This document shows, piece by piece, positions 4,477-4,677 of a DNA stretch of 14,368 nt. The notes beneath the pieces were generated by a model. It saw nothing but the letters and a program-made list of their open reading frames with translations. It was not told the origin of the DNA and did no database searches. Where the stretch lies: UHGV virus genome UHGV-0068104, one strand, 5' to 3'. Within the stretch, counting starts at the first letter, position 1; every line of letters begins with the position of its first letter. The DNA comes from a virus. Position numbers and translations under genes: made by a program.

Positions 4477-4677
4477 TCATTTCTCGTTATTTTTCATGCT
4501 GGCCGGGCGCAGATGCGTTGCATCTGTTGCCAGCCTTCTCCTGCAGGCTTCAATAACCCACGCTGAAAAGTTACCGGACCCTTTATGCTCAAGGGCGATG
4601 CTGATCTGTTCAATCATGTGATTGGGGAAACGGATATTGCGGGTTGTGGTTCTGCGGGTCCGGTTTTTCGATGACAT
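4477..4677 (-). CDS. DUF3950-like small protein, probable ribbon-helix-helix DNA binder (lambda right-end small ORF homolog)
   Basis: Minus-strand ORF; internal ATG (codon on + strand 4675-4677) preceded by AAGGAA 8-12 nt upstream; product MSSKNRTRRTTTRNIRFPNHMIEQISIALEHKGSGNFSAWVIEACRRRL... The longer GTG-initiated 86-aa form (to 4737) lacks an RBS. Confidence 0.75.
   Translation of the reverse strand: MSSKNRTRRTTTRNIRFPNHMIEQISIALEHKGSGNFSAWVIEACRRRLATDATHLRPASMKNNEK

What the first reader, a model, noticed from the sequence alone, without database searches (positions are those of the whole stretch)
4477..4677. Only minus-strand gene in the window: RHH-like DUF3950 protein divergent from the HNH gene
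A 66-aa protein with an N-terminal basic stretch and RNIRFP beta-strand-like segment (ribbon-helix-helix character) is transcribed against the late operon, with a good AAGGAA RBS. Its start is only about 41 bp from the HNH start, and it is convergent with the TonB-like moron. A small antisense-oriented DNA binder at the boundary between moron island and packaging module could be a regulator. An inverted repeat CAGATGC-GTT-GCATCTG lies inside its 3' coding part (about 4511-4527).
Basis: partly seen in the sequence, partly recalled or inferred. Interest (0 to 1): 0.4.

Follow-up and report, generated by a model that had tools for sequence, protein, structure and literature searches.

The report
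Small YlcI/YnfO ribbon-helix-helix prophage gene
The minus-strand ORF is a real, strongly conserved 66-residue gene of the already catalogued YlcI/YnfO (DUF3950) family, which phage lambda also carries; its predicted fold is that of a ribbon-helix-helix DNA-binding protein, but its DNA target and biological role are still unknown.

Summary
A 66-aa ORF lies at 4477-4677(-), with an AAGGAA ribosome-binding site. It starts 41 bp from the HNH start and is convergent with the TonB_C gene. It belongs to Pfam DUF3950 and NCBIfam YlcI_YnfO_N, and PGAP already annotates it at 100% DNA identity in E. coli. At least 1464 of 5426 complete E. coli genomes carry it. Lambda has an intact copy that its RefSeq record does not annotate.

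Codons 1-49 are under strong purifying selection (pN/pS 0.07 against lambda).

The gene keeps one position in lambdoid phages: the last gene before the packaging genes, antisense to the late operon. Outside E. coli, most homologues with sequenced flanks lie in PICI-like satellites. There they are divergent from the replication operon and sit behind repeated palindromes, a repressor-like layout. Two satellite copies are fused to a TerS DNA-binding domain.

I found no operator for the phage copy. The internal inverted repeat is real but neither unusual nor conserved.

Verdict: a known family and a likely small repressor with an unknown target. Interest is modest.

The parts
4477..4677 (-). YlcI/YnfO (DUF3950) gene, 66 aa. 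Residues 1-13 form a basic arm, 14-17 (NIRF) the predicted beta-strand, 19-32 helix A, 33-36 a GSGN turn and 37-about 52 helix B. The tail from about residue 50 is variable and is disordered towards the C-terminus.
4684..4689 (-). Ribosome-binding site AAGGAA, 6 nt upstream of the ATG
   Evidence: Read directly from the sequence
4779..4807 (-). Candidate sigma-70 promoter for the gene (CTGACA-17 nt-CAGAAT, 9 of 12 matches), embedded in the HNH coding region. A consensus match only.
   Evidence: It is also present in JLK-2012, but conservation there is confounded with HNH coding.
4510..4526 (.). Inverted repeat CAGATGC-GTT-GCATCTG, extendable to 4498-4534, inside the variable-tail codons. Judged incidental.
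4678..4718 (.). 41-bp spacer between the divergent DUF3950 and HNH start codons. Homology between HNH-type and lambda-type contexts begins only at the DUF3950 start codon.
4719..5084 (+). HNH endonuclease gene, the divergent neighbour and first gene of the packaging module
4004..4345 (+). TonB_C-domain gene, the convergent neighbour. It has its own promoter-like site at 3959-3986, which overlaps the 3982-3998 palindrome.

Best explanation
The ORF encodes a small ribbon-helix-helix DNA-binding protein of the YlcI/YnfO (DUF3950) family.

By analogy with Arc, Mnt, CopG and omega, two chains would pair their N-terminal strands (T12-R13-N14-I15-R16-F17) into an antiparallel ribbon that sits in the major groove. 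N14 and R16 align with the two invariant strand residues N11 and R13 of Arc/Mnt. The basic arm (residues 1-13) would contact the backbone. The variable C-terminal tail is free for other contacts.

I infer that it is a transcriptional repressor made from its own promoter when late transcription is off, that is, in the lysogen or very early in infection. Antiterminated late transcripts would run through the gene in antisense and should silence it.

It occupies a fixed slot in lambdoid genomes: the last gene before the cos/terminase module, on the opposite strand.

Shown here: the gene is real and under selection, it belongs to the family, its predicted fold is RHH, and its position is conserved. 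Inferred: dimerisation, DNA binding, repressor activity and timing of expression. Its operator and regulon are not identified.
For: The gene is real and under selection:
- Pfam and NCBIfam hits are above their cut-offs.
- At least 1464 of 5426 complete E. coli genomes carry it, with a median of 2 copies among carriers.
- Over codons 1-49, window against lambda gives pS 0.66 and pN 0.044, so pN/pS is 0.07.

The fold is RHH:
- The AlphaFold2 secondary structure fits an RHH monomer.
- hhalign against an Arc/Mnt profile gives E=0.009 in the expected register. Only 1 of 300 column shuffles reaches that score.
- Two distant family members touch Pfam RHH_6 at E=0.011.

The context suggests a regulator:
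- In about 20 enterobacterial loci outside E. coli, the homologue has a satellite-type integrase and/or primase as a neighbour.
- In the best-resolved of these loci it lies between int/alpA and the primase operon, divergent from that operon.
- Where I inspected the upstream sequence, the gene's own promoter-like region carries two or three copies of a 10-14 bp palindrome of the GTG...CAC type. The palindrome differs between elements.

Expression outside the late operon: published RNA-seq analysis lists ybcW-ylcI as a convergent overlapping transcript pair in E. coli (PMC12288877).

The slot is conserved: I saw the same layout in lambda, DLP12, Qin, an O104:H4 prophage and a chicken-isolate prophage.
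Against: - No operator was found. Window-type and lambda-type flanks share no significant motif. The satellite-type palindrome TGTGCGCACA is not enriched in the window.
- The promoter is only a 9-of-12 consensus match inside the HNH gene.
- The structure models have moderate confidence (pLDDT 68-70) and are monomers. The dimer that defines an RHH could not be modelled.
- The satellite palindromes could be bound by another protein of the switch region, such as the divergent 67-aa product or AlpA. Strand residues do not map one-to-one onto palindrome sequence: L005 copy 1 and L059 share K-N-I-R-F but have different palindromes.
- No paper in the searched library reports a function for the family.
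Confidence: 0.6

Rival explanations
1. It is a packaging accessory factor. The protein would bind at or near cos and modulate terminase or HNH action, or protect cos in the prophage, working together with TerS.
For: The gene always lies next to the cos/terS region, and this holds for two unrelated small-terminase types: Nu1-like in lambda, DLP12 and Qin, and HNH plus Terminase_2 here. Two satellite homologues are fused to a TerS N-terminal DNA-binding segment. In one of them that segment is 66% identical to window TerS residues 2-54.
Against: - The gene is transcribed against the late operon that makes terminase.
- The predicted base-reading residues are identical in lambda-type and HNH-type phages, although the sequences upstream of the gene are unrelated.
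- In satellites the gene sits in the control region, several kilobases from the packaging genes.
- Some homologues lie in chromosomal contexts with no phage genes annotated nearby, beside a cytochrome bd operon and beside a fimbrial/type I R-M island.
Confidence: 0.12
2. It is the antitoxin of a type II toxin-antitoxin pair, since the closest structural matches are RHH antitoxins.
Against: No co-directional partner gene exists in the window. Downstream there are 131 bp and then a convergent gene. Upstream on the same strand there is only a shadow ORF inside HNH. In lambda and DLP12 a convergent gene separates it from the DUF1398 gene. PADLOC gives no hit.
Confidence: 0.05
3. It is a prophage-encoded partner in helper-satellite cross-talk. 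The phage protein would share operators with the related repressor-like proteins of PICI-type satellites, or form mixed dimers with them. Its loss when late transcription starts would then tell the satellite that the helper has entered the late phase.
For: - Satellites that parasitise this phage type carry one or two paralogues in their control region. In L005 the satellite is inserted in terS of a window-like prophage.
- The residues conserved across the whole family are I15, R16, F17, F37, V41 and A44. These probably belong to the dimer core, which is my inference.
- The antisense position makes expression of the phage copy inversely coupled to late transcription.
Against: This is entirely inferential. 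The strand residues differ between phage and satellite copies, and no phage-type operator was found in the satellites. Lambda and the K-12 cryptic prophages keep the gene, and I have no evidence of such a satellite there.
Confidence: 0.1
4. It is an incidental conserved ORF or recombination linker with no protein function.
For: Homology between contexts is confined to about 150 bp, which is the pattern expected for a module-boundary sequence.
Against: Synonymous sites are near saturation (pS 0.66) while the protein barely changes (pN/pS 0.07). The gene has a good ribosome-binding site. The family extends to about 33% identity while keeping the same motif.
Confidence: 0.03

Closest known systems
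YlcI (DLP12) and YnfO (Qin) of E. coli K-12, and the unannotated lambda ORF at 48109-48303 (complement)
   Same: The family is the same (PF13132, NF041551). The N-terminal 49 residues differ at only 4 positions. The orientation and slot are the same: divergent from the small-terminase gene and on the opposite strand to the lysis and packaging genes.
   Different: Here the divergent neighbour is an HNH gene 41 bp away, not a Nu1-like gene about 390 bp away. The C-terminal tail (ATDATHLRPASMKNNEK) and the convergent neighbour (a TonB_C gene) also differ. None of these proteins has a known function.
Arc and Mnt repressors of phage P22 (Pfam Arc, PF03869)
   Same: They are the same size, with the same order of basic arm, strand, helix, turn and helix. 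The strand motif is N-x-R-aromatic-P: NIRFP here, NLRWP in Arc and NFRMP in Mnt. All are encoded inside the late region of a temperate phage and read from their own promoters.
   Different: Sequence similarity is only marginal (hhalign E=0.009, no BLASTP alignment). There is no antirepressor gene downstream and no identified operator. Pfam does not score the protein as Arc.
CopG/omega-type RHH repressors and RHH antitoxin DNA-binding domains (CopA_SO 6iya, TacA2 7ak7, Rv0298 8u12, omega 1irq/2bnw, SvtR 2kel, ParD2 7b22)
   Different: Sequence identity is 7-20%. There is no toxin partner. The plasmid copy-control or partition context is absent.
Master regulators of phage-inducible chromosomal islands and helper-embedded PICIs (PMC10111431, PMC6092414)
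   Same: Satellite DUF3950 homologues sit in the dynamic zone between int-alpA and the replication genes. They read against the replication operon and lie behind repeated palindromes.
   Different: The window gene is in the helper phage, not in a satellite. The satellite papers I read do not describe DUF3950 as a regulator, and in Gram-negative PICIs the known master regulator is AlpA.

Membership tests
DUF3950 / YlcI-YnfO family (Pfam PF13132, NCBIfam NF041551) | Score above the curated cut-off of the family models | tested here: met
   PF13132 scores 68.5 bits against a cut-off of 25. NF041551 scores 35.3 bits against a cut-off of 30. phrog_949 matches at E=3e-32.
DUF3950 / YlcI-YnfO family | Conserved motif K/R-N-I-R-F-P ... 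N-F-S-A-W-V-I-E-A-C in a protein of about 50-80 residues | tested here: met
   Alignments A1 and A2. R16, F37 and V41 are invariant. I15, F17 and A44 are conserved in at least 90% of 27 sequences that go down to about 33% identity.
Ribbon-helix-helix (MetJ/Arc/CopG) superfamily | Order of elements: N-terminal strand with alternating polar and hydrophobic residues, helix A, tight Gly-containing turn, helix B | tested here: met
   The AlphaFold2 models give an extended 1-18, helix 19-32, turn G33-S-G-N36 and helix 37-55. The strand itself is not formed in a monomer model.
Ribbon-helix-helix superfamily | Structural similarity to solved RHH domains | tested here: met
Ribbon-helix-helix superfamily | Detectable sequence or profile homology to an established RHH family | tested here: inconclusive
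   hhalign against Arc/Mnt gives E=0.009 for a single comparison, in the right register. One of 300 shuffles reaches the score. Pfam RHH_6 is touched at E=0.011 by 2 of 27 members. There is no PDB sequence hit and no BLASTP alignment to Arc or Mnt.
Ribbon-helix-helix superfamily | Obligate homodimer forming a two-stranded antiparallel ribbon that binds DNA | not testable with these tools
   Only single-chain prediction was available, and there are no biochemical data.
Type II toxin-antitoxin antitoxin | Co-directional, adjacent or overlapping toxin gene | tested here: not met
   There is no co-directional partner in the window. PADLOC gives no hit.
P22 immI-type Arc/Mnt module | Divergent arc/mnt pair with an overlapping operator-promoter region that controls an antirepressor gene | tested here: not met
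   There is a single gene, no antirepressor downstream and no palindromic operator in the 41-bp spacer.

The most novel reading that the evidence does not exclude
The conserved cos-proximal, inward-reading position may not be an accident. Two readings follow.

First, in lambda the gene starts 199 bp from the right cohesive end, which is the end that enters the cell first. It could therefore be the first phage gene available for transcription, a 'pre-early' DNA-binding function.

Second, because late transcription reads it in antisense, its product could be a lysogeny-phase signal whose disappearance is read by PICI-type satellites. These carry paralogous RHH proteins in their switch region, some of them fused to a helper-like TerS DNA-binding domain.

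Either reading would give lambda itself a regulatory gene that is not annotated in its RefSeq record.
Probability: 0.1. Interest if true: 0.7.

Novelty: already known. Interest (0 to 1): 0.35.

Why it matters
The family is very common: at least a quarter of complete E. coli genomes carry it, often in several copies, and so do lambda and many Stx-converting phages. Even so, the papers I found give it no function, and the lambda RefSeq record does not annotate it.

Fixing its fold as RHH turns a 'domain of unknown function' into a candidate repressor that can be tested by EMSA, ChIP-seq and a lambda deletion.

The satellite contexts are a concrete lead into how Gram-negative phage satellites are controlled and how they read their helpers. 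These contexts are the repressor-like position, the triple palindromes and the fusions to a helper-like TerS DNA-binding domain.

For this window, however, the gene is an ordinary conserved component of the phage type, not a peculiarity of this sequence.

Tried and rejected
1. A direct sequence link to solved structures failed. phmmer and hmmsearch against the PDB found nothing useful, and BLASTP against Arc and Mnt found no alignment.

3. I looked for an operator shared by the window-type and lambda-type flanks. Alignment shows that homology starts only at the start codon. Shared 9-mers and palindromes are no more than chance would give: an 11-mer ACACTGAATAC and a CTGTCACAG palindrome.

4. 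I transferred the satellite palindrome of the most similar strand type (TGTGCGCACA) to the window. It gave 6 matches with up to 2 mismatches, against 8.8 expected.

5. A simple recognition code between strand residues and satellite palindromes works only partly. Y-K-G goes with GTGTTTAAACAC-like sites. K-N-I goes with two different palindromes.

6. I tried to locate cos from phage record ends. The one record linearised near here is circular, so its end is arbitrary. All other matches are internal to their records.

7. Literature: no functional study of YlcI, YnfO or DUF3950 turned up. The lambda ribosome-profiling paper is not in the library.

8. Rfam found no RNA family in the window.

9. The inverted repeat is not followed by a U or T run on either strand and is not conserved, so I rejected it as a terminator.

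10. The alignment-based locus scan first failed because no stretch of A2 was conserved enough. I repeated it with a closer alignment.

Full report
**1. What is in the window**

The window is the late region of a lambdoid, Stx-phage-like prophage. It is 96-98% identical over 3900-5400 to Stx1a-converting phages and to Escherichia phage JLK-2012. The gene order is:
- Q-like gene (369-857)
- holin, lysozyme and Rz (1383-2600)
- KilA-N protein (2802-3323)
- TonB_C-domain gene (4004-4345, +)
- the ORF in question (4477-4677, -)
- HNH endonuclease (4719-5084)
- Terminase_2-type small terminase (5374-5937)
- large terminase, a long capsid-type ORF and portal

**2. The observation**

The site is AAGGAA, the complement of 4684-4689, 6 nt upstream of the ATG. 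So are the 41-bp spacer to the HNH start and the convergent arrangement with the TonB_C gene, with a 131-bp gap.

The mechanical ORF list gives an 86-aa version from an upstream GTG. All homologues begin MS(S/T)KN at the ATG, so 66 aa is right.

The inverted repeat lies at 4510-4526, one base off. It can extend to an interrupted hairpin at 4498-4534. Thirteen such perfect repeats, counted with nested alignments (7 distinct loci), occur in the window against 6.0 +/- 2.9 in shuffles. It has no T or U tract after it. It lies in the variable tail, and homology to other tail variants breaks inside it at about 4523. I treat it as incidental.

**3. Is it a gene?**

Yes.
- It scores well above the cut-offs of Pfam DUF3950 (68.5 against 25 bits) and NCBIfam YlcI_YnfO_N (35.3 against 30).
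- PGAP annotates it as 'YlcI/YnfO family protein', including at 100% DNA identity. At least 1464 of 5426 complete E. coli genomes carry it, with a median of two copies among carriers.
- Between the window and lambda, codons 1-49 show 22 synonymous differences on 33 synonymous sites. They show only 5 non-synonymous differences on 114 sites, so pN/pS is 0.07.
- An exhaustive profile search of 1.84 billion representative proteins finds only 189 relatives at E<=0.001. Many of these are frameshifted copies of the E. coli gene. The family is narrow and essentially enterobacterial.

**4. Lambda has it**

Many apparent hits in unrelated bacteria are contigs of about 3.5 kb or 48.5 kb that match the lambda-type right end. 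They carry bor, DUF1398, ybcW, Rz, lysozyme and holin genes 96-100% identical to the references. I take them to be lambda control DNA.

Following this up, lambda (NC_001416) contains an intact 64-aa ORF at 48109-48303 (complement). Its protein is identical to K-12 YlcI, and its start codon lies 199 bp from the right cohesive end. The RefSeq record does not annotate it.

In lambda-like linear phage records the gene lies 200-550 bp from the right end.

**5. Conserved position**

In lambda, DLP12 (ylcI), Qin (ynfO), an O104:H4 prophage and a chicken-isolate prophage, the gene is the last one before the small-terminase gene. It is on the opposite strand and about 390 bp upstream of the small-terminase gene. 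In most of these prophages it is convergent with a small variable gene on the other side.

The window shows the same layout with a different packaging module, HNH plus Terminase_2.

The homology between the two context types begins exactly at the start codon and ends near codon 50. What is conserved is therefore the protein's N-terminal domain. Its promoter and its tail are not conserved.

**6. Fold**

AlphaFold2, run with two alignments, gives the same picture. Residues 1-18 are extended, 19-32 form a helix, G33-S-G-N36 a turn and 37-55 a second helix, and the tail is disordered. The mean pLDDT is 68-70.

A profile-profile comparison with Arc/Mnt, taken from P22 and its relatives, aligns NIRFP plus helix A with NLRWP plus helix A at E=0.009. 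One of 300 column-shuffled controls reaches that score. Two distant members touch Pfam RHH_6 at E=0.011.

Each line is weak on its own. Together they make the RHH fold likely; I put it at about 0.85.

N14 and R16 align with Arc N11 and R13. As I recall the Arc-operator structure, those residues and Q9 read the bases. That part is recalled knowledge, not a test made here.

**7. Context outside E. coli**

About 20 of the 26 non-E. coli enterobacterial loci have a satellite-type integrase and/or primase next to the homologue. They come from Serratia, Pectobacterium, Klebsiella, Enterobacter, Xenorhabdus, Brenneria, Pantoea and Gilliamella, among others.

In the best-resolved loci the order is: primase operon (-), then the DUF3950 gene (+), then alpA and int (-). 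This is the PICI-like layout, and the homologue falls in the 'dynamic zone' of the published four-zone scheme (PMC10111431).

Where I inspected the sequence, the 150-200 bp upstream of these genes holds two or three copies of a 10-14 bp palindrome around a promoter-like GTCAA...TATAGT. The palindrome differs between elements:
- GGTGCACATACACC
- TGTGCGCACA
- GTGTTTAAACAC
- GGTGCGGCCACAC
- TGGTACGTACCA

That is the anatomy of an autoregulated repressor gene. However, I cannot show that DUF3950, rather than a neighbouring protein, binds the palindromes, and the match between strand residues and palindrome sequence is only partial.

Two satellite homologues, P0208 and P0246, are fused to a TerS N-terminal DNA-binding segment. 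In P0246 that segment is 66% identical to residues 2-54 of the window's TerS.

A few homologues lie in contexts with no phage genes annotated nearby.

**8.

The 3982-3998 palindrome overlaps the -10 (TG-n-TAGAAT) of a promoter-like site for the TonB_C gene. That region is covered in only 7 of the 93 matching phage records.

The 5176-5303 GTTAAC repeats lie between HNH and terS. Similar GTTTAACAC repeats precede the satellite DUF3950-TerS(N) fusion gene. They are more likely recognition sites for the small terminase.

The lambda-type protein has the same N-terminal 19 residues, including the predicted DNA-reading strand. Yet its upstream region is not homologous to the window's. Neither site is therefore a good candidate operator. 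I found no candidate operator.

**9. Mechanism proposed**

I propose a dimeric RHH repressor, made from its own promoter when late transcription is off and silenced when late transcripts read through it in antisense.
- Here the only promoter candidate is CTGACA-17 nt-CAGAAT at 4807-4779, inside HNH.
- Transcription of the K-12 copy as a pair convergent with ybcW is reported in PMC12288877.
- The target is unknown.

The rivals are scored in the report sections. The packaging-accessory idea (0.12) is the most serious because of the positional conservation and the TerS fusions. The strand orientation, the identical reading residues across unrelated cos-proximal sequences, and the control-region position in satellites all weigh against it.

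**10. Novelty and score**

The gene is an already catalogued family member, and the RHH idea is a sound structural inference rather than a new kind of system. The useful by-products are the unannotated lambda copy, the conserved cos-proximal antisense slot, and the satellite control-region and TerS-fusion contexts. Interest is 0.35.

Noticed in passing
L081 3610-3804 (-), which is lambda NC_001416 48109-48303 complement: Phage lambda carries an intact 64-aa DUF3950 ORF whose protein is identical to K-12 YlcI. It starts 199 bp from the right cohesive end. The RefSeq record annotates no CDS there.
   Followed up: yes
About 30 short or end-of-contig loci among L016-L069, for example L016-L025, L027-L037, L039-L043, L049, L062 and L069: Assemblies labelled Kitasatospora, Cohnella, Pseudomonas, Nanosynbacter MAG and others contain contigs of about 3.5 kb or 48.5 kb. 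These match the lambda-type right end, with bor, DUF1398, ybcW, Rz, lysozyme and holin genes 96-100% identical to the references. They are almost certainly lambda control-DNA contamination, not real occurrences of the gene.
   Followed up: partly
L005 (E. coli CP027459.1), about 1-10000, against the prophage part at 10600-16300: A capsid-encoding PICI-like satellite lies between a window-like prophage's HNH gene with a truncated 61-aa TerS stub and the rest of that region. This is a helper-embedded satellite of the kind described in PMC10111431. It carries two DUF3950 genes in its control region.
   Followed up: partly
L005 8001-8363 (P0246) and L004 4714-5103 (P0208): In these satellites, DUF3950 is fused to a TerS N-terminal DNA-binding segment. 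In P0246 the segment is 66% identical to the window's TerS (the helper type) and 53% identical to the satellite's own TerS. GTTTAACAC repeats at L005 7880-8000 precede the P0246 gene and resemble the window's 5176-5303 GTTAAC repeats.
   Followed up: partly
For example L059 5880-5975, L054 about 5900-5980, L065 about 5875-5990 and L005 7530-7590: Two or three copies of an element-specific 10-14 bp palindrome of the GTG...CAC type flank a promoter-like GTCAA...TATAGT upstream of satellite DUF3950 genes. A conserved GC-rich hairpin (GCCCGG...CCGGGC) lies beside the divergent gene.
   Followed up: partly
window 3959-3998: The TonB_C-domain gene has its own promoter-like site, ATGACC-16 nt-TAGAAT with an extended TG. 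Its -10 overlaps the perfect palindrome AGAATAAG-A-CTTATTCT (3982-3998), which looks like an operator for an unknown regulator. By eye it does not fit the Fur box.
   Followed up: partly
window 5176-5303: Five GTTAAC-core repeats lie between HNH and terS, including the perfect 18-bp palindrome CAGTTAACATGTTAACTG at 5176-5193. This spacer is 95-99% conserved in about 90 phage records. The repeats are probably small-terminase recognition sites near cos.
   Followed up: partly
window 4689-5105 (-): A 138-aa ORF lies antisense to the whole HNH gene and matches phrog_1487 (E=8e-52). It is probably a shadow ORF that has been annotated as a gene in some phage records.
   Followed up: partly
L081 3953-3967 (lambda 48452-48466) and L002 6594-6610: A palindrome like the Fur 7-1-7 consensus, as I recall that consensus, lies between the DUF3950 start and the right end. 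It reads TGATAATGATTATCA in lambda and ATGATAATTATTATCAT in DLP12. In DLP12 it overlaps a promoter-like GTGACA-16 nt-TATCAT that points towards nohD.
   Followed up: no
window 11169-12068: The 299-aa ORF after the portal gene contains an internal duplication of about 50 residues (DDVRPMLEQMVKEAVSHIPVPRDGRDYDPDVLQQAVNDAV appears twice).
   Followed up: no
L090 (Pasteurella phage Pmp7, OR544138.1) 4853-5011 (+): A weak DUF3950-like tblastn match (38% identity, E=2e-4) lies on the strand opposite to an annotated 'transcriptional repressor' CDS. The element is 10.7 kb and satellite-like, with int, primase, terS, terL and HNH genes.
   Followed up: no
P0128: A 3694-aa representative protein matches the DUF3950 profile in 17 separate stretches (profile positions 29-54). 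I did not inspect it. It may be a repeat protein or an assembly artefact.
   Followed up: no
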